From Escherichia phage LinBro: a DNA stretch of 64,000 nt. The stretch lies in the sequence record OR896830.1; one strand, 5' to 3'. The first letter of the stretch is position 1. Each line of letters starts with the position of its first letter. Below, piece after piece: positions 22,885 through 64,000 of the stretch. A program made the translations under genes and the position numbers. Below the pieces are notes generated by a model. It searched no databases. It was given only the letters and a program-made list of their open reading frames with translations, and had not been told where the DNA came from.

Positions 22885-23079
22885 ATGCCTACAATCCTAG
22901 CAATTCTCCTAAAAAATCTAGGTAGTTTCTTCTGGAAACTCATTTTATCTCTTCTAAGTGAATACATGATTGAGAAAGTGTTCTTTAAGCTTGCAAGATA
23001 CCTTGCGGGTAAGACAGACACCCCTATTGATGATGAATTCGTAGATAACTTAGAAAAAGCTTTTAAGGGGGAGAAATAA
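22885..23079 (+). CDS. small membrane protein (holin-like candidate)
   Basis: 64 aa, N-terminal hydrophobic helix ILAILLKNLGSFFWKLILSLL, charged C-terminus. Confidence 0.3.
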   Translation: MPTILAILLKNLGSFFWKLILSLLSEYMIEKVFFKLARYLAGKTDTPIDDEFVDNLEKAFKGEK

Positions 23080-23451
23080 ATGAAGTGGATAGAGGAAGCT
23101 TTTAAAAATAATATTGGTGCAATTGTTGTTGGTATTTTTAGTGTTATTGGGATGTATACCACGATGCAAGTTTCAAGTGGTAAGCAAGAGGTGTCTGTCA
23201 CAACAAAATTACAGCAGCTAGATAATTATAGCAAATCTAATTACTCAGCTATTCGTGATTTACAGTCTGACATAAGACTTATTCAGTTAGGGATGGAGAA
23301 CCAGAAAGTTCAGTTAGAGAATGTTAAGGGTGAGAATGCAAAACTTACCAAAACTCTTGATAAATTCTCTGACAGTGTGAATAATCTGGCTCAATCAGTA
23401 TCAGCCCTCCAAGCTATTACTGAAAAGAACACAAAGAATACTGAAAAATAA
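23080..23451 (+). CDS. membrane-anchored coiled-coil protein (lysis-related candidate)
   Basis: 123 aa, N-terminal TM segment GAIVVGIFSVIGMY followed by coiled-coil heptads. Confidence 0.3.
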   Translation: MKWIEEAFKNNIGAIVVGIFSVIGMYTTMQVSSGKQEVSVTTKLQQLDNYSKSNYSAIRDLQSDIRLIQLGMENQKVQLENVKGENAKLTKTLDKFSDSVNNLAQSVSALQAITEKNTKNTEK

Positions 23452-28734: not shown

Positions 28735-29036
28735 TTCCTCTTGCCACCAATTTCTACGTCAATAACTTGAACATCACCAGCAACATCAAACTTATGAATG
28801 ATGCTTTCCACAGTGTAAGTCCAACCATCAATGCGAACCAACTCACCTTCTCGTGGGACGATTGGGTTACGTTGAGCTACCGTTGTAGTAGAGTGAACAA
28901 CATCATAACAATAGATATAGTTTACTAGGACTTCCATCGTGAAACCCTCACTCAATAACCGTAGTGTGTGATTGACCATTTTTGCCATAGCTATAAGATG
29001 TTGTTGTTTGGGAGTTTGGACATCTGACAACAACAA
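28731..29036 (-). CDS. hypothetical protein
   Basis: 101 aa ORF. Confidence 0.35.
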   Translation of the reverse strand: MLLSDVQTPKQQHLIAMAKMVNHTLRLLSEGFTMEVLVNYIYCYDVVHSTTTVAQRNPIVPREGELVRIDGWTYTVESIIHKFDVAGDVQVIDVEIGGKRK

Positions 29037-29208
29037 TATCTCTGCTTATAGCATCACCATGTAACTTGTATACTCTGCAATCTTGCATCTCTGGTGGGAG
29101 GCTGTAAGAAGCATTTTTATCTTCATAAGAAGGGTTGCAGCCAGATAGAAAAATAACACCAAGCGCAATTACTGATTTCCACATAATACACCCCTGTTTA
29201 CTGTTCAC
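28948..29208 (-). CDS. putative lipoprotein
   Basis: Signal peptide with lipobox-like FLSGC; likely true start at internal Met MWKSV. Confidence 0.4.
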   Translation of the reverse strand: MNSKQGCIMWKSVIALGVIFLSGCNPSYEDKNASYSLPPEMQDCRVYKLHGDAISRDIVVVRCPNSQTTTSYSYGKNGQSHTTVIE

Positions 29209-41018: not shown

Positions 41019-41749
41019 AAAACTGGAATCTTCGTTGTGGAAACACTCAAAAACAACCTTACAGTAATGAGTATTGGGAATCTTTGAAATCTCAATCTCT
41101 GTGTATGCTTGAAGAAGCAAAAGAGCTTGTAAAAGCAATTGAAGAGAAAGACCCCATTGAGACACTGGATGCTCAGGCAGATTTGCAATATGTTCTTGAC
41201 GGTTTGATTTACCTGTCACAACATGACCATAACGGTGCTATGAAAGCTGTTTGCCATAATAATGACCTGAAATACACAGATGACTATGAAGAGGCTTTAA
41301 AACGTCTTGCAGACATTGAAAAGCGTACTGGTCAAGAGTGTATTATCAGAATGTCAGTAGTTGATGGTAAAGAGTGGTATGTGATTGTTCGTGCAGCCGA
41401 TGGGAAGATTATGAAGCAATCAAATCTCCCTAAAGTACAGCTTGGTGAATACATTGTAGAACTTGAAAGCCAAGAACTTTTTGTGGTAGTATCTGAGACA
41501 TGCGTTATCTGCAAAGGTATTGTAGGTAGCTTAAAGGATTTGGGTGTAGATGGTTTTGTAGAAGTTAATCCAATTACCTCTAAAGCAGATAAAGACTTCT
41601 GTAAAGAGAATGGACTATGGATTGCAGATATTGTCTATTATGATGGTGAGCAGTTCCATGTAACCTCATACCCGAAACTGAATTATGATGCTAATAACCT
41701 GAAGTGCTGGTTAAAAGGGGTTGGTTATAATGGATTCACAGAACATTAA
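40994..41749 (+). CDS. MazG-like NTP pyrophosphohydrolase domain protein (candidate) with C-terminal extension
   Basis: EEAKELVKAIEEKD...ETLDAQADLQYVLDG resembles the EExxE...ExxD metal-binding pattern of all-alpha NTP-PPases. Confidence 0.3.
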   Translation: MFNSRESVKNWNLRCGNTQKQPYSNEYWESLKSQSLCMLEEAKELVKAIEEKDPIETLDAQADLQYVLDGLIYLSQHDHNGAMKAVCHNNDLKYTDDYEEALKRLADIEKRTGQECIIRMSVVDGKEWYVIVRAADGKIMKQSNLPKVQLGEYIVELESQELFVVVSETCVICKGIVGSLKDLGVDGFVEVNPITSKADKDFCKENGLWIADIVYYDGEQFHVTSYPKLNYDANNLKCWLKGVGYNGFTEH

Positions 41750-42053
41750 TAAAGAGGGTGTGGCTCAGAAGAGCCACTTCTCAAACTACAATATTTCTAT
41801 GACGGTGTTTATGAATGACCCGTTACTAGAAAAATATGGTGAGACTCCAGATACACTTCTGGACAATGAACAAGTTTTAAAAGCAGTCCTGTACAAATAT
41901 GGGATTGATATTGAGAAAGAGTATTCCTTTGAAATCTGCCAACACAGAAATACTTTCGGTAAAGTTGTGATGGCTCCGCTCTTTATGGGTGTAGAAAGGA
42001 CTGACTATGGTTGGTTGTATCTGAAAAGAAACTTGGAGAAATACCGTGTCTAA
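41721..42053 (+). CDS. hypothetical protein
   Basis: 110 aa ORF. Confidence 0.3.
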   Translation: MVIMDSQNINKEGVAQKSHFSNYNISMTVFMNDPLLEKYGETPDTLLDNEQVLKAVLYKYGIDIEKEYSFEICQHRNTFGKVVMAPLFMGVERTDYGWLYLKRNLEKYRV

Positions 42054-56158: not shown

Positions 56159-58525
56159 ATGCGCATGGTAAATGACCACGCAGAAGTGATTAAGAGTTCA
56201 ACTTCTTTGGAGACATCTCAAGCACAGATTACAATGACACCTGAAATGTTCAGCCTTCTGAGTTCTGGTGTATACACATTCAAAGAAAGGGCAGTGATTC
56301 GTGAACTGTCATGTAATGCAGTAGATGCTCAGAAAGAAGCTGGAAAAGAGAACATCCCATTCCATGTGCATTTACCTACTCGATTTGAGCCTTACTTTGA
56401 AGTCCGTGACTTTGGAACTGGTTTAACCCATGACAAAGTAATGAGTTTGTACCTGAACTATGGGGCTTCTACGAAGAATGACTCTAATGATTACATTGGT
56501 GCAATGGGTATCGGCTCAAAATCACCATTTGCAATTGCTCAGTCATTCACAGTGTCTAGCTATGTTGATGGTGTTGTTAATAAGTACTCTGTTTACCTTG
56601 AGAATGGTATACCTCAAGTAACTAAGCTTACTACTAACCCAACAAATGAACCCAATGGTTTAGCTGTACGTGTGGCAGTTGCTGACCACCGTATTTCAAA
56701 GTTCTTTGAAGAGGCTGGTCATGTATACTCATACTTTGCTGTAAAACCAGAAAGTAACATTGTATATGATGATGTGTTAGCAGATATGAACGTCATTGCT
56801 CGTGAAGAAGGTGTTTATGATGCCATGATTCATAAGCAAAGCTGGCGTTCTAGTGGTAACAGGACGGAGTTTAATGTGGTGATGGGTAATATTGCCTATC
56901 CAGTGAACATGGAAGCATTACTTGGTGATGATTTCTTCAAAGTCTTGCCAGAGTTTTTCCGTAGGAGCGTAGACCTTGTAAACATTTACATGCCTATTGG
57001 TTCAGTCGCTATTGCAGCTTCTCGTGAAGCATTGCAGATGAATGATACGACAAAAAATGTTATCATTGAGGCTACTAAAAAGATAACTGAAGCAATTACA
57101 AAGGATGTTATCAAGAAAGTTAATAGCCAACCTACACTCATGGATGCTGCACAGGCTTATGCTGAGTTACGTTTGAACTCACGAGAGATGTTTAATGCTG
57201 TGTGTCCAAAGTTAGAGTGGGGAGGCGTTAAGCTTGATTCTTTGGAAGAAGAATTACTAAACATTCGTCGTGGGATTATCTACGCAGAAGACGGCTCAGT
57301 CATTTATGAACGTGACGGCAAAGGTAATATTAAGGTTGACAGTAAAGGAAACAACATTCCTAAAGTGGACTACCTATACAATCCAGTTGCTTATGTTAAG
57401 TTCAACTCTTTAGAGAGTAAGATTCGTGCAACAGCACTTTCCTACACTCAAGAGGCGAGCATGTTCAATATCTTTGGTGCAATGCGTAAAAGCCAAATTG
57501 AACAGTTTTTGTTCGTGATTAATGACCGTCGCAATAAAAACGGTACTGAAAAGACTGTAGGCCGCAATCAGATTCTGCGTGGTGCATGTCGAGACTACGC
57601 CAGTGAGTCAAGTCTGTTTCACAGATATAATGGTATTGTGTTTGTATTCTCGACTGAAAAAGAGTTAGACGACCTAATCAATCTACACAAACTTGATAAA
57701 AGCTTGTTAAAGATTGTGAAAATGTCTGATAAGGAGCACCATTACCAGCGCAAAGAAGCTGTAAGGGGTGTTGTAAAACTCTGGAAAGCTGTTCCAGCAG
57801 AAGGTGTAGCTTCCTATAAAGAGGTTTCAGAGGACTTTGATACAATTGAAGAACCTCAGCTTTACATTAAGGCAGTTGGTGACACAGTTGATGGCGAATG
57901 TTTTTGCTCATCTCCAGAAGATGTAGCTAAGTCAGTCGCTAATGTTCTAGGGAAGACAGTCTATGTTTTCCGAAAAGCAAATTGGAAAAAGATACCAGAA
58001 GACTGGATTGAAGTAGATGAGAAGCTCTTGAACGACAGCTTAACTGATGTTCACTGGATTAATCATAACAGGTATATGACACGTATCTATATGAATGGTG
58101 TTCTTGACCTTACAAGCAGTTGGATTATCACCAGAAACTTTACATTCAATAACAGGAAGATTTCTCGTGGTTATTGCTATTCACGAGATACTAACAAAAC
58201 TATCTTCCTAGAAGGCAATGAAGATGCTGTAGAGGCAATGTTCGGTAAAATCCAATACGTTGCTGCACCATTTGCATACACTTATACTGTTAGTGTATTG
58301 AAAACTTTGAAAGACTGTCTTGACAATGATACAAAGCTTTACAAGAAAATTAAGAAAGCTGGTGACCGCATGGTCATTAAGGTGACAAACTACCTTTCAA
58401 AAAGAAAACAAGAAAACTTCTTGCTTTCTCATTTAGATTGGAATAAAGTGTCGCCTATCGAAGTGAGTAAGTTCTTAGGCTTTGATGTGAAGTGTGTTCC
58501 AGAAGGGACTACAATTTACGATTAA
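56159..58525 (+). CDS. rIIA: rIIA-like protein with N-terminal GHKL (Bergerat-fold) ATPase domain
   Basis: ATPase motifs IRELSCNAVDA (N box), VRDFGTGL (G1), GAMGIGSKS (G2); 788 aa followed by rIIB-sized ORF. Confidence 0.6.
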   Translation: MRMVNDHAEVIKSSTSLETSQAQITMTPEMFSLLSSGVYTFKERAVIRELSCNAVDAQKEAGKENIPFHVHLPTRFEPYFEVRDFGTGLTHDKVMSLYLNYGASTKNDSNDYIGAMGIGSKSPFAIAQSFTVSSYVDGVVNKYSVYLENGIPQVTKLTTNPTNEPNGLAVRVAVADHRISKFFEEAGHVYSYFAVKPESNIVYDDVLADMNVIAREEGVYDAMIHKQSWRSSGNRTEFNVVMGNIAYPVNMEALLGDDFFKVLPEFFRRSVDLVNIYMPIGSVAIAASREALQMNDTTKNVIIEATKKITEAITKDVIKKVNSQPTLMDAAQAYAELRLNSREMFNAVCPKLEWGGVKLDSLEEELLNIRRGIIYAEDGSVIYERDGKGNIKVDSKGNNIPKVDYLYNPVAYVKFNSLESKIRATALSYTQEASMFNIFGAMRKSQIEQFLFVINDRRNKNGTEKTVGRNQILRGACRDYASESSLFHRYNGIVFVFSTEKELDDLINLHKLDKSLLKIVKMSDKEHHYQRKEAVRGVVKLWKAVPAEGVASYKEVSEDFDTIEEPQLYIKAVGDTVDGECFCSSPEDVAKSVANVLGKTVYVFRKANWKKIPEDWIEVDEKLLNDSLTDVHWINHNRYMTRIYMNGVLDLTSSWIITRNFTFNNRKISRGYCYSRDTNKTIFLEGNEDAVEAMFGKIQYVAAPFAYTYTVSVLKTLKDCLDNDTKLYKKIKKAGDRMVIKVTNYLSKRKQENFLLSHLDWNKVSPIEVSKFLGFDVKCVPEGTTIYD

Positions 58526-58604: not shown

Positions 58605-59714
58605 ATGACTACTAAAACTAAAGCACAGATTGACGCAGAAATTTACAAACTGGTTAAAGAAGGTAAGCTGACTAAAACAGCTATTGCACAGAAATTTAAT
58701 ACTTCAACCCGTTCAGTTGGTCGTGCTGTAGAGCGTCATGAAGCAACTTTAAAAGGGGATAAGAAGGCAACTTCTACACCAGCTACGAAGACTTTGAAGC
58801 AAGTTGCTAAGACATTTAAAAAGAAAGCTGACAAACCAGTTGAAAAGGTCGTTAAAGATGCTGTACAGAAAGCTCCGGTAAATAAACTGCATGAAGCTAT
58901 GCAGAAAGATGACAAGATTGAGTACATGATTACTGGTGACTCTGTAATTATGACTTATGGTTCAGAATCTGAAATTGTTGAGTCTACTCATCCGAACTAT
59001 CAAGAGATTGTAGTTCATGTTGTGAAAGGTGAGTTCAAAAAAGCCTTTGAATTGATGAACATTCGTAAGTCTATCGAAAACTTCACTCAGGGCGCTATCA
59101 CAATCAAAGGTGACAAGTTATTCTACGGTGCTGTTGAGATGCGTTCTACTCTGGTTGACCGTATTCTTCACATGATGAAGACTGGAGATAAAGGTTTCGA
59201 ACGCCTTGTGATGTTCTTCGAAAAACTGATGGAAAACCCATCTAAAGACTCTGTAGAACAACTTTGGGGCTTCGTATCTCACCTTGATGTTGAAATTGAT
59301 GAAGAAGGCTACATCATTGGTTGGAAGAAAGTATCTACTCGTGAAGGCAAGCTGGTTGACTCCCACACCTACAGAGTACCTAATGATTTGGGTAACATTG
59401 TAGAAATGCCACGTTGGATGGTTGATAATAACCGTAACGTGACTTGCTCTCAAGGTCTTCATGTTGGTGCTTGGGATTATGTTCGTTGCTTCTCAGGTGA
59501 TACAATTCTGAAGGTTCGTGTCCATCCACGAGACGTTGTATCCGTACCAACTGATTACAACGATATGAAGATGCGCTCGTCTCGTTATGAAGTTGCAGCA
59601 ATCGTTGATAATCAACGTAAAGTACTGAAAGCATGGGATGGCAAGACTGAAGCTTTGCATGTCATCGTTGGCACTGCTGGGGAACTTATCTCTCAGCGTA
59701 AACGTGAAATCTAA
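58605..59714 (+). CDS. rIIB: rIIB-like protein
   Basis: 369 aa ORF immediately downstream of the rIIA-like gene (conserved pairing); no independent motif. Confidence 0.45.
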   Translation: MTTKTKAQIDAEIYKLVKEGKLTKTAIAQKFNTSTRSVGRAVERHEATLKGDKKATSTPATKTLKQVAKTFKKKADKPVEKVVKDAVQKAPVNKLHEAMQKDDKIEYMITGDSVIMTYGSESEIVESTHPNYQEIVVHVVKGEFKKAFELMNIRKSIENFTQGAITIKGDKLFYGAVEMRSTLVDRILHMMKTGDKGFERLVMFFEKLMENPSKDSVEQLWGFVSHLDVEIDEEGYIIGWKKVSTREGKLVDSHTYRVPNDLGNIVEMPRWMVDNNRNVTCSQGLHVGAWDYVRCFSGDTILKVRVHPRDVVSVPTDYNDMKMRSSRYEVAAIVDNQRKVLKAWDGKTEALHVIVGTAGELISQRKREI

Positions 59715-59730
59715 TAAGTAATTTCTTAAA

Positions 59731-59753
59731 AGGCTGCTTCGGCGGCCTTTTTT
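59731..59753 (+). terminator. rho-independent terminator
   Basis: AGGCTGC-ttcg-GCGGCCT hairpin (one G-U pair) followed by TTTTTT. Confidence 0.6.
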
Positions 59754-59783: not shown

Positions 59784-59814
59784 TGTTTTCACGATAAACT
59801 AAACAGGAGAACCA

Positions 59815-60363
59815 ATGAAGAAATTGATTCTAGGTTTGTGCTTAATGTTTACAGCACACTTATCTTATGCAGTTGACTGCCCAGAGCTATCAATTAGCCA
59901 AAAAGTAAACATGTTAAAAGCTTACCAGTATGGTGAGAATAACATGGGTAAAGGTTGGGGTATCACTCTAGCTGCTATAGCCTTACAAGAGTCAGAGTTA
60001 GGTCTGAAGGTAGAGAATAAAAAGACCCATGACTATGGTATCTTCCAGAATCACTTGAAGACTGTTGTAAAGCGTAACAAAATTAGTCCTAATGTGGCTA
60101 AAAAGAAACTCTTAAAAGACTTTGACTATGCTGCGAAGGAAACTCACAAAGAGCTTGAGTTTTGGACAAAGGTGCATGGTCAGCCAAAGTCAAAGAAGAC
60201 TTTACAAAAAGTTTTAGCATCATATAATGCTGGGTATTCGTACAGAATCCCTAAAGCTAAGAAATATTCTCAAGATGTCTATAACAACATGAAAGTTATT
60301 GCTCAATGTGAATTTGCAACAAACATTTCTAAGGTAAACCATGAAAAAATTAAAAAAGTCTGA
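59815..60363 (+). CDS. secreted lytic transglycosylase (SLT domain) with signal peptide
   Basis: Signal peptide MKKLILGLCLMFTAHLSYA; SLT motifs ALQESELG (catalytic E-S), GIFQ, SYNAGYS. Confidence 0.55.
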   Translation: MKKLILGLCLMFTAHLSYAVDCPELSISQKVNMLKAYQYGENNMGKGWGITLAAIALQESELGLKVENKKTHDYGIFQNHLKTVVKRNKISPNVAKKKLLKDFDYAAKETHKELEFWTKVHGQPKSKKTLQKVLASYNAGYSYRIPKAKKYSQDVYNNMKVIAQCEFATNISKVNHEKIKKV

Positions 60364-61036
60364 TGAAGTACTGTGTCATGCTTACGACTTACATCCTCAT
60401 GAGTTAGGTCTTGATTCCTGTGTATGGACTCCAGAACAGTGTAGGGATTTTGAAGACACTGCAAGAGAAGTTGTATGTTCACTCGAAGAGTTCCACACAT
60501 CAGAACCAATTGTGAATGTTGTAGATAAAGAGACTGGACAAACTATAGGTGTAAGTCGTGATAGCTTAGTCATAGTCAATAAAGACCTTGTAGAAAAAGG
60601 GAATCTCATCTTAGCAGATATTGATGGTGTTCTTACAAATTTTAATCACGAAGATTGTTCAACGGAATTGACTGACGGTTCATTCTCGCAGTACACTAAT
60701 CTTCTTGACTCTGTAAGAGCAAAACCAACGTATGTTTTCAATATCATTGATGCAATTGCTAATCATGCTGCTGTTGGACTCTTGACAGCGAGAGGTGAAT
60801 CTCAGAGAATACCTACTGAGATGTTTTTAAGGCATAACACAGAGCATGACTACATGCTTTTTATGCGTGGTTTTGGGACTAACTCTATAAGCGCAGAAAG
60901 TTTGAAAGTGAGGATGATTCAGTCTTGCATTCTGCCTTACTTTAATATAGTATGTTTTATAGAAGACACAGAGAAGAATGTGCAGAAGGTGAACAGAATC
61001 CTTCCACACATTAAAACCATGTTAGTTAAACATTGA
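60341..61036 (+). CDS. HAD-like hydrolase (candidate phosphatase/nucleotidase)
   Basis: LILADIDGVLTN resembles HAD motif I (DxDG); GLLTARGES motif II-like. Confidence 0.35.
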   Translation: MKKLKKSDEVLCHAYDLHPHELGLDSCVWTPEQCRDFEDTAREVVCSLEEFHTSEPIVNVVDKETGQTIGVSRDSLVIVNKDLVEKGNLILADIDGVLTNFNHEDCSTELTDGSFSQYTNLLDSVRAKPTYVFNIIDAIANHAAVGLLTARGESQRIPTEMFLRHNTEHDYMLFMRGFGTNSISAESLKVRMIQSCILPYFNIVCFIEDTEKNVQKVNRILPHIKTMLVKH

Positions 61037-61046
61037 GAGAAAACTT

Positions 61047-61511
61047 ATGAACAATATCATTACGGTAGCACTGGACGATACGGTAAACAAATCTGCAATA
61101 GTTCGTAAAATGATTCAAGGTAACTTTGAAGGTAAAATTTTTCGTGCTGTTAATGTAAAAGCTGATGGCAGCATTCGTGAATATCGTGCATTATTGAATG
61201 TTAAAAAACACGTAAAAGGTGCTGGTTCAACGACTGCACACAAAGAAAACCTGATGACTATCTATGATATGGGTAAGGCTTCAGAGTTAGGTGCTGAAGG
61301 TATCGTTAAAGAAGGTGCTCCGTATCGCTCTTTCAATCTGGAAACTACTCTTATGCTTTCCTTTACAAGTGGTTCTAAAACAATCACTTACCTCTTTACT
61401 GATGCTGCAACGGTATCTGCTATTAAGGATAGCACTGTCAAAGCTGGCGTAGTTGCTGCTGCAAAAGCTTCTTCGATGGCTGCGAATATCCTTGCTAAAG
61501 TCCTCGGTTAA
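61047..61511 (+). CDS. hypothetical protein
   Basis: 154 aa ORF followed by terminator. Confidence 0.35.
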   Translation: MNNIITVALDDTVNKSAIVRKMIQGNFEGKIFRAVNVKADGSIREYRALLNVKKHVKGAGSTTAHKENLMTIYDMGKASELGAEGIVKEGAPYRSFNLETTLMLSFTSGSKTITYLFTDAATVSAIKDSTVKAGVVAAAKASSMAANILAKVLG

Positions 61512-61523
61512 GGTTAAGATACA

Positions 61524-61544
61524 GGCTCCTTCGGGAGCCTTTTT
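61524..61544 (+). terminator. rho-independent terminator
   Basis: GGCTCC-ttcg-GGAGCC hairpin followed by TTTTT. Confidence 0.65.
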
Positions 61545-61563
61545 CATTTTAGGAGATTGTTAA

Positions 61564-61911
61564 ATGACATTTAAAGAGTTCTGTCAAGCTACTTTCATAA
61601 TTGTTTTCTTAGTTGGGGCAGGTGTCTGGGGAGGATACTCTTACAGAGACTACCAAGTTGCTGAAACTGAGCTAAACAATCAAAAGCTCATAAGTGTTGC
61701 TAAAGATGCTTATCAGGAAGGATTAGTCACACTGAGCACCAATTACAAAAATGATTTGAAAGACGTGCTTGCTAAGAATAAGCACACAAAAGAGGTACTA
61801 ACATATGAAAAGACTAAGCCAGAGTTTTATAATGTTTGTGTTACTGATAATTATGTCAGGGTGTTCAACGAACAAAGTGAGCAGTACATTCAAAAACTCC
61901 CAAGTAAGTGA
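61564..61911 (+). CDS. i-spanin-like protein (N-terminal TM, periplasmic domain)
   Basis: 115 aa; TM helix FIIVFLVGAGVWGG then charged coiled-coil-like region; overlapped by lipoprotein ORF in +1 frame. Confidence 0.35.
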   Translation: MTFKEFCQATFIIVFLVGAGVWGGYSYRDYQVAETELNNQKLISVAKDAYQEGLVTLSTNYKNDLKDVLAKNKHTKEVLTYEKTKPEFYNVCVTDNYVRVFNEQSEQYIQKLPSK

Positions 61912-62074
61912 GAGTGATAAGTACACCCAAGAAGAATCACGGTATATCATCAAAGGCAACACAGGCAGCGATGTAGCAGCAGCCCTTGAGTTCTATCGTG
62001 ACGGCTTTTACCAGTGCACAATCAAAGCTAACAACCTTATTGACATGATTTTATTAGGGAATAAGCAGCAATGA
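61805..62074 (+). CDS. o-spanin-like lipoprotein overlapping upstream gene
   Basis: 89 aa; signal peptide with lipobox-like IIMSGC; starts inside the 3' end of the i-spanin-like ORF in a different frame. Confidence 0.35.
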   Translation: MKRLSQSFIMFVLLIIMSGCSTNKVSSTFKNSQVSESDKYTQEESRYIIKGNTGSDVAAALEFYRDGFYQCTIKANNLIDMILLGNKQQ

Positions 62075-63064: not shown

Positions 63065-63850
63065 ATGGGTATTGTAAAAATAATCAATGGTGATATCTTT
63101 GCCGCATTTGATAAAGGTAAGTTTGACATCATCGGTCACGGTTGCAACTGTATGAATTTAATGGGTGCAGGTATCGCTGACAAGATTTCTAAACTTTACC
63201 CAAAAGCATATGAGACCGATACAGAAGTTTATCTATATGCAGGTGGTATAGGACACAAGCCCTGTGAAAATTTACTAGGCAATTTCTCTGTAGCACGTTT
63301 AGAACAAGGCCGTATAGCTAACCTTTACACTCAGCTTAAGACTGGTAAAGATGCCCGATACAGTGCTTTAGAATCATCTTTGAAACAGCTTAACAGATAC
63401 TGTGAAGTTAACCAGTTGAAGAAAGTTGGTCTACCTATGATTGGTGCAGGTATCGGTGGGCTAGACCCTCAAGCCGTCACAGTTATCATTAATCAGGTGA
63501 TGAAGAGTGTAGATGTGTATCTGTATGTCTATGAAGGAGAGATGTACCACAAGTTACGCTCAGGTTGGAAGAACTACTGTGAACCAGAATACTTTGCAGG
63601 TGTAGTAACGTTCACAGACAATACAGTTACCCTCTTCAGACGAAGAAAAGGTAAGATACATCAAAGTAACCCTCCGGTTGAAAAGATGTCTCTGAGTAAC
63701 GCTCTAGTTACCCACCTGTCGAAGAGCAATCACAGAATTGCAGTAACATTTGGCAGTGATGCAGATACTTATATCTATGCAAGGACTGATGAGGGTATTG
63801 AGTTAATCTTCTCTTCACCAGAGCTTACCTTCTTAGACGCAAAGAACTAA
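63065..63850 (+). CDS. macro-domain (ADP-ribose-binding/processing) protein with C-terminal extension
   Basis: IINGDIF...DIIGHGCNCMNLMGAGIADKI and PMIGAGIGGLDP match the two glycine-rich ADP-ribose-binding loops of macro domains; 261 aa. Confidence 0.55.
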   Translation: MGIVKIINGDIFAAFDKGKFDIIGHGCNCMNLMGAGIADKISKLYPKAYETDTEVYLYAGGIGHKPCENLLGNFSVARLEQGRIANLYTQLKTGKDARYSALESSLKQLNRYCEVNQLKKVGLPMIGAGIGGLDPQAVTVIINQVMKSVDVYLYVYEGEMYHKLRSGWKNYCEPEYFAGVVTFTDNTVTLFRRRKGKIHQSNPPVEKMSLSNALVTHLSKSNHRIAVTFGSDADTYIYARTDEGIELIFSSPELTFLDAKN

Positions 63851-64000
63851 GAAATTTCGTAGTATATTCACAATAGACTAAGCCTTTCTTATCTGGTAAA
63901 TTTTTCAGGTAAGGAGGGCTTTTTCATTTCAGATTTGTGCAGGTAGAGTTCTGTAGAGAAATCTGTAGAGAGAATTTTAAACTCCAAAGAGAAAATTCAT

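What the first reader, a model, noticed from the sequence alone, without database searches (positions are those of the whole stretch)
59815..62074. Secreted lytic transglycosylase and an overlapped spanin-like gene pair located far from the holin-like genes
The SLT-domain protein has a cleavable signal peptide rather than depending on a holin, and 1.2 kb downstream a TM protein gene is overlapped in another frame by a lipoprotein gene, the embedded i-spanin/o-spanin architecture. The only holin-like candidates are 37 kb away after the tail fibres, so the lysis functions appear dispersed, or the SLT protein has a non-lytic periplasmic role.
Basis: partly seen in the sequence, partly recalled or inferred. 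Interest (0 to 1): 0.4.

Follow-up and report, generated by a model that had tools for sequence, protein, structure and literature searches.

The report
Felix O1-type spanins and exported transglycosylase
This stretch of a Felix O1-like phage genome carries an already catalogued overlapping spanin gene pair and an exported cell-wall-cutting enzyme related to the uncharacterised phage T4 protein Vs.1, so it is largely ordinary, and only the biological role of that enzyme is still open.

Summary
The window is a Felixounavirus, about 97% identical to phages LF82P5, VpaE1 and ekra.

- **Spanins.** 61564-61911 encodes a 115-aa protein with an N-terminal membrane helix. 61805-62074 encodes an 89-aa lipoprotein in the +1 frame. 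The arrangement is overlapped, not embedded. The pair belongs to the "JH2" overlapped spanin family of Kongari 2018, which lists Felix O1 and FSL SP-010/-107. The lipoprotein ORF is intact in 313 phage records. In Pectobacterium phage Wc4 and Proteus phage 2207-N35 the homologous pair directly follows an endolysin gene.
- **SLT-like protein.** 59815-60363 is a real GH23/SLT-type protein. The catalytic Glu59-Ser60 and the GxxQ and YNxG motifs are invariant, and it has a signal peptide. It is a homologue of T4 Vs.1 (32% identity), a family found in about 2100 phage records and already noted as SLT-like, with no known function.
- **Endolysin.** The canonical GH24 endolysin lies outside the window. 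Scattered lysis genes in Felix O1-like phages were published in 2010 and 2015.

The SLT protein is probably an accessory periplasmic enzyme, not the endolysin. Already known; low interest.

The parts
59728..59751 (+). Intrinsic terminator after rIIB (stem AAAAGGCTGC-TTCG-GCGGCCTTTT, then a T-run)
   Evidence: Terminator scan. The same site is annotated as a terminator in phage ASO1A.
59756..59783 (+). Sigma-70-like promoter candidate: TTGTAT, 16-nt spacer, TATAAT (perfect -10, weak -35)
   Evidence: Read from the sequence. It falls below the scanner's 4/6 rule for the -35 hexamer. The equivalent site is annotated as a promoter with 3 mismatches in ASO1A. Function is inferred, not shown.
59815..60363 (+). 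Vs.1-family exported GH23/SLT-type murein transglycosylase (182 aa). Signal peptide is residues 1-19, predicted cleavage SYA|VD, catalytic E59-S60, G75-x-F-Q78, S136-Y-N-A-G140, Y151, and a Cys22/Cys165 pair.
   Evidence: PHROG 600 at 1e-57. Invariant motifs. PF01464 hit in 12/12 family members. Profile versus PDB: best hits EtgA and goose lysozyme. AF2 model pLDDT 84.7 with GH23 fold matches. T4 Vs.1: 32% identity, E 2e-16.
60341..61036 (+). PseT-like protein (231 aa), co-transcribed neighbour. Only the HAD-type phosphatase part matches T4-type polynucleotide kinase/phosphatase profiles. Context, not a lysis gene.
   Evidence: PHROG 3970 at 1e-134. Weaker hits to PNK families cover only residues 84-219. 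HAD_PNKP hit (marked faint) recorded for the gene in the corresponding position of a distant relative (L020), homology not tested.
61047..61511 (+). Conserved protein of unknown function (154 aa), last gene before the terminator. Context.
   Evidence: PHROG 2267 at 5.6e-49. Conserved in Moogle and Erwinia phage.
61523..61540 (+). Intrinsic terminator (AGGCTCC-TTCG-GGAGCCT, then TTTTTC), ending 24 nt before the i-spanin start codon
   Evidence: Terminator scan. Annotated as a terminator in ASO1A.
61564..61911 (+). i-spanin (115 aa): N-terminal TM helix at about residues 9-25, a periplasmic domain with a single conserved Cys92, and a conserved C-terminal motif P-x-F-x-N-x-C-V-T/S-D-x-Y-x-x-x-F-N-E
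   Evidence: PHROG 1152 'Rz-like spanin' at 1e-41. Hydropathy. Homologues in Moogle, Erwinia, Pectobacterium and Proteus phages. JH2 i-spanin family in Kongari 2018.
61805..62074 (+). o-spanin (89 aa precursor): signal peptide plus lipobox IMSG|C20, Ser at +2, conserved Cys71, +1 frame. It overlaps the last 107 nt of the i-spanin gene and extends 163 nt beyond it.
   Evidence: PHROG 4180 at 1e-50, and a weak hit to PHROG 456 'Rz-like spanin' at 1.9e-4. ORF intact in 313 records. Lipobox and second Cys kept in five diverged homologues. Substitution density versus Moogle is 11% in the overlap against 25-30% in the flanks, and 34 of 49 differences fall at third positions in the o-only part.
23080..23451 (+). 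Putative holin (123 aa, one N-terminal TM helix, long polar C-terminal part) after the tail-fibre genes. Its identity as the holin is unproven.
   Evidence: ORF list. PHROG 4038, unknown function. Annotated 'holin' or 'putative holin' by similarity only, and confined to 262 Felix O1-like records.
22885..23079 (+). Small hydrophobic protein (64 aa) immediately upstream of the putative holin. A possible holin/antiholin partner, untested.
   Evidence: ORF list. PHROG 402, unknown function. Hydropathy.

Best explanation
The window is a Felix O1-like myophage (Felixounavirus), and its lysis genes are scattered as in T4.

Spanins. The pair at 61564-62074 is an overlapped two-component spanin of the published JH2 family. 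The i-spanin is anchored in the inner membrane by its N-terminal helix. The o-spanin is lipidated at Cys20 and, with Ser at +2, is sorted to the outer membrane. The two proteins are expected to join across the periplasm. Once the murein has been destroyed they would fuse the inner and outer membranes as the last step of lysis. This mechanism is inferred from lambda Rz/Rz1.

Murein destruction. This is the job of a cytoplasmic GH24 lysozyme encoded in the roughly 20 kb of genome not in the window. It would be let out by a holin, for which 23080-23451 is the candidate.

SLT-like protein. The protein at 59815-60363 is not that endolysin. It is the counterpart of T4 Vs.1: a small GH23 (SLT/goose-lysozyme fold) enzyme with an intact catalytic Glu. 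It is exported by a cleavable Sec signal peptide, and it starts a three-gene unit (SLT-like gene, PseT-like gene, unknown) that sits between two terminators behind its own sigma-70-like promoter. It most likely nicks or remodels murein in the periplasm during infection, as an accessory function that is not sufficient for lysis.

Shown here: the ORFs, the motifs, the homology, the conservation and the synteny. Inferred: export, enzymatic activity, timing of expression and biological role.
For: Identity of the phage: 97% nucleotide identity over 4 kb to LF82P5, VpaE1 and ekra. The window is collinear with ekra from the terminase gene to gene 14.

Spanins:
- PHROG 1152 'Rz-like spanin' at 1e-41 for the i-spanin.
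- TM helix and lipobox present.
- Annotated i-/o-spanin in dozens of relatives, including the Center for Phage Technology annotation of Moogle with the same 270-nt o-spanin ORF and a ribosome-binding site.
- Felix01, FO1a, FSL_SP-010, -012, -107, UAB_phi87, WV8, Moogle and Mushroom are listed as the JH2 overlapped family (PMC6139136). The window's o-spanin is 100% identical to that of FSL SP-107.
- Homologous pairs lie immediately after an endolysin gene in Pectobacterium phage Wc4 and Proteus phage 2207-N35.
- The lipobox Cys, a second periplasmic Cys in each partner, and the C-terminal motifs are conserved at 27-31% identity.
- Signature of dual coding: 11% substitutions in the overlap against 25% and 30% in the flanks, and third-position bias in the o-only part.

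SLT/Vs.1:
- Invariant E59, Q78, Y137, N138, G140 and Y151.
- PF01464 hit in 12/12 family members.
- EtgA and goose lysozyme are the best PDB hits by profile.
- AF2 model at pLDDT 84.7 matches g-type lysozymes, a GH23 chitinase, EtgA and Cj0843 Slt, and phage SLT proteins at TM about 0.7.
- T4 Vs.1: same length, 32% identity, E 2e-16.
- 2142 phage records hold homologues.
- Every aligned full-length homologue has an N-terminal signal-like segment. Cys22 and Cys165 are present together or absent together, as expected for a periplasmic disulfide.
- The Acinetobacter phage AM101 homologue is annotated 'putative lytic murein transglycosylase, putative periplasmic secretion signal; Vs.1'.

Endolysin elsewhere: GH24 ekra_112 has no match in the window and is present at 98% identity in LF82P5. 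Felix O1 gp35 is a Phage_lysozyme with no adjacent holin (PMC3185647). Lysis genes are described as 'scattered around the genome' (PMC4319497).

From established knowledge, not tested here: T4 mutants lacking the e lysozyme fail to lyse although they carry vs.1.
Against: - No experiment on any Felix O1-type spanin or on any Vs.1-family protein was found in the held literature.
- The SLT match of this protein alone is below Pfam's gathering score. There was no direct PDB sequence hit, and Foldseek E-values against PDB are weak (best 6.7e-3, TM about 0.5).
- Signal-peptide cleavage was judged by eye, because no SignalP-type tool was available.
- The i-spanin gene starts 24 nt after an intrinsic terminator with no recognisable promoter in between, so how and when the spanins are expressed is unknown.
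- The single-sequence AF2 model of the i-spanin is unreliable (pLDDT 46.9).
- The o-spanin has no proline, unlike lambda Rz1, and shows no similarity to characterised spanins beyond a weak PHROG 456 hit.
- The holin is only a candidate.
Confidence: 0.8

Rival explanations
1. The SLT-like protein is a Sec-exported, holin-independent endolysin that contributes directly to host lysis or is sufficient for it. It would be kept in check until membrane depolarisation, as proposed for signal-peptide endolysins such as Lys44 of Oenococcus phage fOg44.
For: Signal peptide plus an intact GH23 catalytic motif set. Annotated 'putative lysin' or 'lysozyme' in some relatives. It lies 1.2 kb from the spanins and next to rIIA/rIIB.
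Against: A canonical soluble GH24 endolysin is encoded elsewhere in the genome of close relatives. The homologue T4 Vs.1 coexists with the essential endolysin gpe, and T4 e mutants do not lyse (established knowledge). The gene sits behind a sigma-70-like promoter in what appears to be an early-gene block (timing inferred, not shown), not with late or lysis genes. In no phage examined was a Vs.1 homologue adjacent to spanins as part of a lysis cassette.
Confidence: 0.12
2. The N-terminal hydrophobic segment is a signal-anchor-release (SAR) domain rather than a cleaved signal peptide. The enzyme would be tethered inactive in the inner membrane and released when a pinholin collapses the membrane potential.
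For: The hydrophobic core contains Gly, Cys, Thr, Ala and His (LILGLCLMFTAHL), so it is only moderately hydrophobic (KD 19-residue mean 1.64).
Against: The core is only about 13 residues, too short for a membrane helix. It is followed by a classical small-x-small site (S-Y-A|V). Homologues have varied but typical signal peptides with A-x-A-like ends. No pinholin-like gene is adjacent. A conserved Cys pair suggests a folded, disulfide-bonded periplasmic protein.
Confidence: 0.04
3. The SLT-like protein is a virion-associated murein hydrolase used to pierce the wall during DNA injection, like T7 gp16, PRD1 P7 or tail-associated SLT domains.
For: Many phage SLT/GH23 domains are virion proteins. 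Several Foldseek matches in BFVD are tape-measure or tail lysozyme proteins.
Against: A Sec signal peptide would remove it from the cytoplasm, where virions assemble. It lies in the rII/nucleotide-metabolism block, not among the structural genes. The Felix O1 structural proteome lists gp23, 36, 49, 53-59, 63-77, none of them from this part of the genome.
Confidence: 0.03
4. The TM/lipoprotein pair is not a spanin. Instead it would be, for example, a superinfection-exclusion or receptor-blocking lipoprotein (like T5 Llp or Cor) with a membrane partner.
For: The pair is not in a lysis cassette here. It is preceded by a terminator and sits in a block that looks early. No experimental test exists. 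The o-spanin family PHROG 4180 is labelled 'unknown function'.
Against: Homologous pairs directly follow endolysin genes in two other phage lineages. Overlapped +1 architecture, conserved periplasmic Cys in both partners and OM-sorting signal all fit the spanin definition. Membership in a curated spanin family. T4 spanins are likewise outside any cassette.
Confidence: 0.05

Closest known systems
JH2 family of overlapped two-component spanins (Kongari et al. 2018, SpaninDB), which includes Felix O1, FO1a, wV8, UAB_Phi87, FSL SP-010/-012/-107, Moogle and Mushroom. The i-spanin family also includes phiEco32 and KBNP1711.
   Same: Same genes. The o-spanin is 100% identical to that of FSL SP-107. 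The architecture is overlapped in the +1 frame, with an N-terminal TM i-spanin and a lipobox o-spanin. A short nucleotide match of the overlap region to phiEco32-type spanin genes agrees with the published family composition.
   Different: Nothing of substance. This is another isolate of the same family. No Felix O1-type member has been tested experimentally, as far as the held literature shows.
Lambda Rz/Rz1 and T4 PseT.3/PseT.2 spanins
   Same: The same two-component logic: a type-II inner-membrane protein plus an outer-membrane lipoprotein, with periplasmic Cys residues available for intermolecular disulfides. As in T4, the genes lie outside any lysis cassette and close to a pseT-type gene.
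   Different: No detectable sequence similarity to T4 PseT.3. Overlapped rather than embedded (lambda) or separated (T4). The i-spanin is shorter than Rz (115 aa). The mature o-spanin is 69 aa with no proline, whereas lambda Rz1 is 40 aa with 10 Pro.
Phage T4 Vs.1 (conserved ORF between regB and vs; 181 aa) and its orthologues in T4-like, Vi1-like and other large virulent myophages
   Same: Same length, 32% identity, E 2e-16. N-terminal signal peptide, the same invariant Glu-Ser, GxxQ and YNxG motifs. Marginal to clear Pfam SLT matches. Located among early/accessory genes rather than with lysis genes. Function unknown in both.
   Different: The Felix O1-type proteins carry a Cys22/Cys165 pair that T4 Vs.1 lacks. 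The neighbours differ: rIIB and the PseT-like gene here, regB and vs in T4.
Specialised periplasmic lytic transglycosylases of secretion systems (EtgA of the EPEC type III system; IagB, IpgF, VirB1 and P19 by recollection)
   Same: Small (150-190 aa), Sec-exported, single GH23 domain. EtgA is the best PDB hit for the family profile (E 6.9e-4) and is among the Foldseek hits.
   Different: No secretion-system context. Similarity is remote (17% identity in the structural alignment). Those enzymes are recruited and activated by a partner of the apparatus, and no such partner is known here.
Signal-peptide and SAR endolysins (fOg44 Lys44; P1 Lyz, phage 21 R21)
   Same: A muralytic enzyme that reaches the periplasm through the Sec system without a holin.
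   Different: Those are the phage's only endolysin and sit beside a holin or pinholin. Here a separate GH24 endolysin exists and no holin is adjacent.

Membership tests
Two-component spanin (overlapped architecture) | i-spanin: a single N-terminal transmembrane domain with the bulk of the protein in the periplasm | tested here: met
   One hydrophobic segment, KD 19-residue mean 1.75 at residues 6-24, none elsewhere. The same layout is found in four diverged homologues.
Two-component spanin (overlapped architecture) | o-spanin: SPase II signal with lipobox Cys and no Asp at +2 (outer-membrane sorting) | tested here: met
   MKRLSQSFIMFVLLIIMSG|C20-S-T. The lipobox is kept as ISGC, TASC, ISAC and IAGC in Moogle, Erwinia, Pectobacterium and Proteus phages. 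One of only two such signals in the whole window. No LipoP/SignalP run was possible.
Two-component spanin (overlapped architecture) | o-spanin gene starts inside the i-spanin gene in another frame and ends beyond it | tested here: met
   61805 lies inside 61564-61911 in the +1 frame, and the gene ends at 62074. The arrangement is conserved in all homologues examined.
Two-component spanin (overlapped architecture) | Both reading frames under selection | tested here: met
   313 records keep the ORF at >=80% coverage, down to 29% identity. Versus Moogle, substitutions are 11% in the overlap against 25% and 30% in the flanks, and 34 of 49 o-only differences are at third codon positions.
Two-component spanin (overlapped architecture) | Periplasmic Cys residues available for intermolecular disulfides | tested here: met
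   i-spanin Cys92 and o-spanin Cys71 are conserved in all five diverged pairs. Disulfide formation itself is not testable here.
Two-component spanin (overlapped architecture) | Helical / coiled-coil periplasmic domain of the i-spanin | tested here: inconclusive
   The single-sequence AF2 model is all-helical but has pLDDT 46.9. Kongari 2018 notes that this feature varies widely among spanins.
Two-component spanin (overlapped architecture) | Genetic linkage to endolysin/holin (lysis cassette) | tested here: not met
   Not linked in this phage. It is linked in homologues of Pectobacterium phage Wc4 and Proteus phage 2207-N35. This is not a strict requirement: T4 spanins are also unlinked.
Two-component spanin (overlapped architecture) | Required for outer-membrane disruption; complements lambda RzRz1 mutants | not testable with these tools
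   Needs genetics. No published test of a Felix O1-type pair was found.
SLT / GH23 family-1 lytic transglycosylase (PF01464) | Pfam SLT score above the gathering threshold | tested here: not met
   19.2 bits against a cut-off of 21.3 for this protein alone. At family level, 12/12 aligned homologues hit PF01464 at E<=0.01, best 3.5e-10. Several database homologues carry a precomputed PF01464 hit.
SLT / GH23 family-1 lytic transglycosylase (PF01464) | Catalytic Glu in an E-S motif, followed by G-x-x-Q and (A/S)-Y-N-x-G motifs and a conserved Tyr | tested here: met
   E59-S60, G75-I-F-Q78, S136-Y-N-A-G140 and Y151. E59, Q78, Y137, N138, G140 and Y151 are invariant in 15- and 12-sequence alignments that reach T4, Vibrio, Acinetobacter and jumbo-phage homologues.
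SLT / GH23 family-1 lytic transglycosylase (PF01464) | Goose-lysozyme-like all-alpha fold | tested here: met
   AF2 pLDDT 84.7 / pTM 0.79. Top PDB matches are g-type lysozymes, a GH23 chitinase, EtgA, Cj0843 and Slt70-type enzymes, at probability 1.0 but TM about 0.5. BFVD matches to phage SLT proteins have TM 0.66-0.76.
SLT / GH23 family-1 lytic transglycosylase (PF01464) | Produces 1,6-anhydro-MurNAc ends (transglycosylase rather than hydrolase) | not testable with these tools
   Needs muropeptide analysis. Sequence alone does not separate a lytic transglycosylase from a g-type lysozyme here.
T4 Vs.1 family | Significant full-length similarity to T4 Vs.1, with the same size and an N-terminal signal peptide | tested here: met
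   tblastn hit to the T4 vs.1 locus. BLASTP E 2e-16, 32% identity over 174 columns, 182 aa against 181 aa.
Sec-exported or SAR endolysin | Is the phage's lysis enzyme and is genetically coupled to a holin or pinholin | tested here: not met
   A separate GH24 endolysin is present in close relatives and absent from the window. No holin-like gene is adjacent. Whether it is needed for lysis is not testable here.

The most novel reading that the evidence does not exclude
The Vs.1-type exported transglycosylase is not an endolysin. It would be a conserved periplasmic effector of rII-carrying virulent myophages (T4-like, Vi1-like and Felix O1-like). Secreted from early in infection, it would pre-condition the murein. 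It might widen the mesh so that spanin complexes can assemble through it, permit cell enlargement during delayed lysis, or interfere with superinfecting phages. That would make it an unrecognised extra component of lysis or envelope control shared by about 2000 sequenced phages.
Probability: 0.15. Interest if true: 0.55.

Novelty: already known. Interest (0 to 1): 0.15.

Why it matters
For the finding as stated, very little. The spanin pair is in the published spanin catalogue. The scattered layout of Felix O1-type lysis genes has been in print since 2010. The window simply re-samples that biology.

The useful residue is a pointer. The 'SLT protein' is the Felix O1 counterpart of T4 Vs.1. This family is present in more than 2000 phage genome records, keeps a catalytic glutamate and an export signal, and has been noted as SLT-like since at least 2006. 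No function for it was found in the held literature. A simple knockout and biochemical study in T4 or a Felixounavirus would settle what a secreted murein-cutting enzyme is doing in phages that already have a holin-controlled endolysin.

Tried and rejected
- phmmer of the SLT protein against PDB sequences found nothing, even at E<=10. Only the family profile reached EtgA and goose lysozyme.
- NCBIfam gave no meaningful hit for the SLT protein, the spanins or the holin candidates.
- Pfam gave nothing above threshold for the spanins or the 154-aa protein.
- T4 PseT.3 against the i-spanin showed no BLASTP similarity. The shared pseT linkage is therefore not evidence of homology.
- The single-sequence AF2 model of the i-spanin was too poor to use.
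- Literature searches for a function of T4 Vs.1 and for 'LysO1' found nothing useful. The Bas63 cryo-EM paper mentions transglycosylase only for a different system.
- I looked for a lysis cassette around the Vs.1 homologue of Ackermannviridae phage Maynard. Apart from a small ORF annotated 'holin' four genes upstream, there are no spanin-like neighbours.
- The 'Campylobacter coli' homologue P0020, checked as a possible cellular relative, sits on a chimallin-encoding, jumbo-phage-like contig. No bacterial-chromosome context was obtained.
- The scanner's sigma-70 hits inside coding sequence (for example 60201-60228 and 61805-61833) were not taken as promoters. The number found (29) is about 1.7 sd above the shuffled expectation (21.8 +/- 4.2), not a clear excess.

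Full report
**What the window is.** A 4-kb query around the finding matches 277 phage records. The best are Felixounavirus LF82P5, VpaE1 and ekra at about 97% identity. The window is collinear, in reverse orientation, with phage ekra from its terminase gene (ekra about 72.5 kb) to gene 14 (ekra about 7.4 kb). It therefore covers about three quarters of a genome of roughly 85 kb. The annotated neighbours upstream of the finding are rIIA (56159-58525) and rIIB (58605-59714).

**Check of the observation.**
- 59815-60363 encodes 182 aa beginning MKKLILGLCLMFTAHLSYA|VDCPEL. This is a basic n-region, a 13-residue hydrophobic core and small residues at -3/-1. AGGAG lies at 59805-59809, 5 nt upstream of the ATG.
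- 61564-61911 encodes 115 aa with one N-terminal hydrophobic helix.
- 61805-62074 is in the +1 frame. It encodes 89 aa beginning MKRLSQSFIMFVLLIIMSG|CSTNK. This is a lipobox with Ser at +2, preceded by AAGAGG.
- The lipoprotein gene shares 107 nt with the TM gene and runs 163 nt past it. The arrangement is therefore 'overlapped' in the terminology of Summer 2007 and Kongari 2018, not 'embedded'.
- A strict lipoprotein-signal filter applied to all 1394 start/ORF combinations of >=40 aa in six frames passes only two loci, and this is one of them. It is not a chance pattern.

**The spanin pair.**
- The TM protein falls in PHROG 1152 'Rz-like spanin' (1e-41). The lipoprotein falls in PHROG 4180 (unknown function, 1e-50), with a weak hit to the spanin family PHROG 456.
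- Many relatives annotate the two genes as i-spanin and o-spanin. The Center for Phage Technology annotation of Citrobacter phage Moogle uses exactly the same 270-nt ORF and marks its ribosome-binding site.
- tblastn finds the lipoprotein ORF over at least 80% of its length in all 313 matching records. These include Erwinia, Pectobacterium and Proteus phages at 29-34% identity.
- In those distant phages the TM gene, the +1 overlap, the lipobox (TASC, ISAC, IAGC), a second Cys near the C-terminus of the lipoprotein, and a Cys in the conserved C-terminal motif of the TM protein are all retained.
- In Pectobacterium phage Wc4 and Proteus phage 2207-N35 the pair directly follows a P22-type endolysin gene, which is a classical lysis cassette.
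- Against Moogle, substitution density is 25% in the i-only part, 11% in the overlap and 30% in the o-only part. In the o-only part, 34 of 49 differences are at third positions of the o-spanin frame. Both frames are therefore under purifying selection.
- Kongari et al. 2018 list Felix01, FO1a, FSL_SP-010, -012, -107, UAB_phi87, WV8, JH2, EC6, Moogle and Mushroom as the 'JH2' family of overlapped two-component spanins. PhiEco32 and KBNP1711 share the i-spanin family.
- That membership explains the short 80-85% nucleotide match of 61804-61871 to phiEco32-type phages. The window's o-spanin is 100% identical to that of FSL SP-107.
- The pair is therefore an already catalogued, though experimentally untested, spanin.

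**The SLT-like protein.**
- *Sequence evidence.* Alone it scores 19.2 bits on Pfam SLT, just under the 21.3 cut-off, and it falls in PHROG 600, 'unknown function' (1e-57). A database search returned 21 clusters, the more distant ones carrying PF01464. In alignments of 15 and 12 sequences, E59, Q78, Y137, N138, G140 and Y151 are invariant and S60 and G75 nearly so. These are the E-S, G-x-x-Q and (A/S)-Y-N-x-G signatures of family-1 lytic transglycosylases. All 12 members of the broader alignment hit PF01464 at E<=0.01.
- *Structure evidence.* The family profile finds EtgA, the type III secretion transglycosylase (E 6.9e-4), and goose lysozyme in the PDB. An AlphaFold model has pLDDT 84.7, with low confidence only in the signal peptide and the last 11 residues. 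It matches g-type lysozymes, a GH23 chitinase, EtgA and Campylobacter Slt, and matches phage SLT proteins with TM about 0.7. The enzyme class is therefore secure. Whether it is a transglycosylase or a hydrolase cannot be told from sequence.
- *The key identification.* tblastn finds homologues in 2142 phage records, mostly T4-like, Vi1-like, Vibrio, Aeromonas and Acinetobacter myophages. The T4 hit is gene vs.1, between regB and vs. It is 181 aa against 182 aa, 32% identical, E 2e-16, and also has an N-terminal signal-like segment.
- *Prior knowledge of vs.1.* Nolan et al. [quoted passage not shown] The Acinetobacter phage AM101 record calls its copy 'putative lytic murein transglycosylase, putative periplasmic secretion signal; Vs.1'. 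I found no paper assigning a function.
- *Support for a periplasmic location.* Every aligned full-length homologue has a signal-like N-terminus. Cys22 and Cys165 are either both present (Ounavirinae, Ackermannviridae, a Vibrio schizo-T4 phage and others) or both absent (T4, Shewanella and Acinetobacter phages, jumbo-phage homologues). That is the pattern expected of a disulfide.

**Is it the endolysin?** Probably not.
- Phage ekra encodes a 154-aa GH24 lysozyme (ekra_112) beyond the tRNA cluster. It has no match in the window.
- It is present at 98% identity in the closest relative, LF82P5, in the part of that genome the window does not cover.
- Whichard et al. 2010 described this lysin (gp35, Phage_lysozyme) in Felix O1. 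They noted that, 'as with coliphage T4', no holin is adjacent and no holin-lysin cassette exists. Nguyen et al. 2015 state that in Felix O1-like phages the endolysin, spanins and putative holin 'are scattered around the genome'.
- From established T4 genetics, not tested here, loss of the e lysozyme blocks lysis even though vs.1 is intact. A Vs.1-type enzyme is therefore not sufficient for lysis in T4.

**Transcription layout.** The SLT gene starts a three-gene unit (SLT-like gene, PseT-like HAD phosphatase, unknown 154-aa protein). The unit is bracketed by intrinsic terminators at 59728-59751 and 61523-61540 and preceded by TTGTAT-N16-TATAAT. The same promoter and terminators are annotated in phage ASO1A. 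This looks like host-polymerase (early) expression, but that is an inference. The synteny rIIA-rIIB-SLT-PNKP(HAD)-unknown is kept in Moogle, in Erwinia Kolesnikvirus and in a 39%-identical metagenomic relative.

**How it most likely works.**
- *Lysis.* It follows the T4-like dispersed scheme. A holin opens the inner membrane; the candidate is 23080-23451, a 123-aa single-TM protein called 'putative holin' only by similarity and confined to 262 Felix O1-type records. The cytoplasmic GH24 endolysin then degrades murein. The i-spanin/o-spanin complex, now free of the murein cage, fuses the inner and outer membranes.
- *The Vs.1-type enzyme.* It is exported independently of the holin and acts on murein in a limited way during infection. 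Its purpose is unknown. Possibilities include murein remodelling, help for envelope-spanning complexes, or effects on superinfection.
- *Shown and inferred.* Shown: genes, motifs, homology, conservation and synteny. Inferred: export, activity, timing and role.

**Open point.** The i-spanin start codon lies 24 nt after the terminator T-run, with no recognisable promoter between them. Spanin expression must come from read-through or from a phage-specific promoter that these tools cannot recognise.

**Verdict.** Both the spanin pair and the dispersal are published, and identical proteins are in public records. The only open biology is the function of the Vs.1 family, which is a general question and not specific to this window. 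Novelty: already known. Interest: low (0.15).

Noticed in passing
window 28948-29184 (- strand): A second lipoprotein-type ORF (78 aa, MWKSVIALGVIFLSG|CNPSYE...) lies among the early genes between the DNA ligase and DNA polymerase genes. It is the only other locus in the window that passes the strict lipobox filter. It belongs to PHROG 902, unknown function, at 1.9e-16. No CDS is annotated at the corresponding place in phage ekra (about 41643-41879). It could be a superinfection-exclusion type lipoprotein.
   Followed up: partly
window 61804-61871: The dual-coding stretch (i-spanin C-terminal motif together with the o-spanin signal peptide and lipobox) matches phiEco32-type podophage spanin genes at 79-85% nucleotide identity, although the rest of the genes do not match. 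This is consistent with phiEco32 sharing the JH2 i-spanin family.
   Followed up: partly
L001 5826-6047 (phage ekra o-spanin) versus window 61805-62074: The ekra record starts its o-spanin 48 nt late, at the Met of ...IIMSGC. That removes the signal peptide. VpaE1 and Moogle use the full 270-nt ORF. ASO1A does not annotate the o-spanin at all. These are typical o-spanin annotation errors of the kind described by Kongari 2018.
   Followed up: yes
window 61523-61563: An intrinsic terminator ends 24 nt before the i-spanin ATG, with only a Shine-Dalgarno sequence in between and no sigma-70-like promoter. How the spanin operon (61564 to about 63850, next terminator at 63880-63921) is transcribed is unexplained.
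   Followed up: partly
L007 2794-3261 (Pectobacterium phage Wc4) versus window 61047-61511: In Wc4 a P22-type endolysin of 155 aa sits immediately upstream of the homologous spanin pair. That is the slot occupied in the window by the unrelated 154-aa protein of unknown function (PHROG 2267, weak WYL_2/Sm-like hit).
   Followed up: partly
window 60341-61036: The 'polynucleotide kinase' of the annotations matches T4-type PNK profiles only over residues 84-219, which include a DIDGVL motif typical of HAD phosphatases. The gene in the corresponding position of a distant relative (L020) carries a faint HAD_PNKP hit. No P-loop kinase domain match was seen, so the protein may be a 3'-phosphatase only. 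Its start overlaps the end of the SLT gene by 23 nt.
   Followed up: partly
window 63065-63850; L010 3883-4350: The 261-aa 'phosphatase' at the end of the spanin operon is annotated in Moogle as containing a Macro domain. In T4, vs.1 is followed two genes later by Tk.4, which has an A1pp (macro) phosphatase motif. T4 spanins also sit next to pseT. T4 and Felix O1-type phages thus share loose linkage among the Vs.1, PseT, macro-domain and spanin genes, but in a different order.
   Followed up: no
L020 8272-8975: In a metagenomic relative (SLT protein 39% identical) the rIIA-rIIB-SLT-PNKP-unknown synteny is kept. The next two genes, however, encode small multi-TM proteins (105 aa and 85 aa) rather than a TM/lipoprotein pair. 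These may be holin-like genes in the spanin slot.
   Followed up: no
L018 6001-6582: The homologue labelled 'Campylobacter coli transglycosylase SLT domain-containing protein' (P0020) lies on a 215-kb contig next to a chimallin (PhiKZ nucleus-shell) gene. It is probably jumbo-phage DNA inside a bacterial assembly.
   Followed up: partly
public records GU169904.1 (Staphylococcus phage SA1) and records named Campylobacter phage: Records named for Gram-positive or unrelated hosts carry Felix O1-type genes at about 96% identity. One example is the putative holin in 'Staphylococcus phage SA1'. This suggests chimeric or mislabelled deposits.
   Followed up: no
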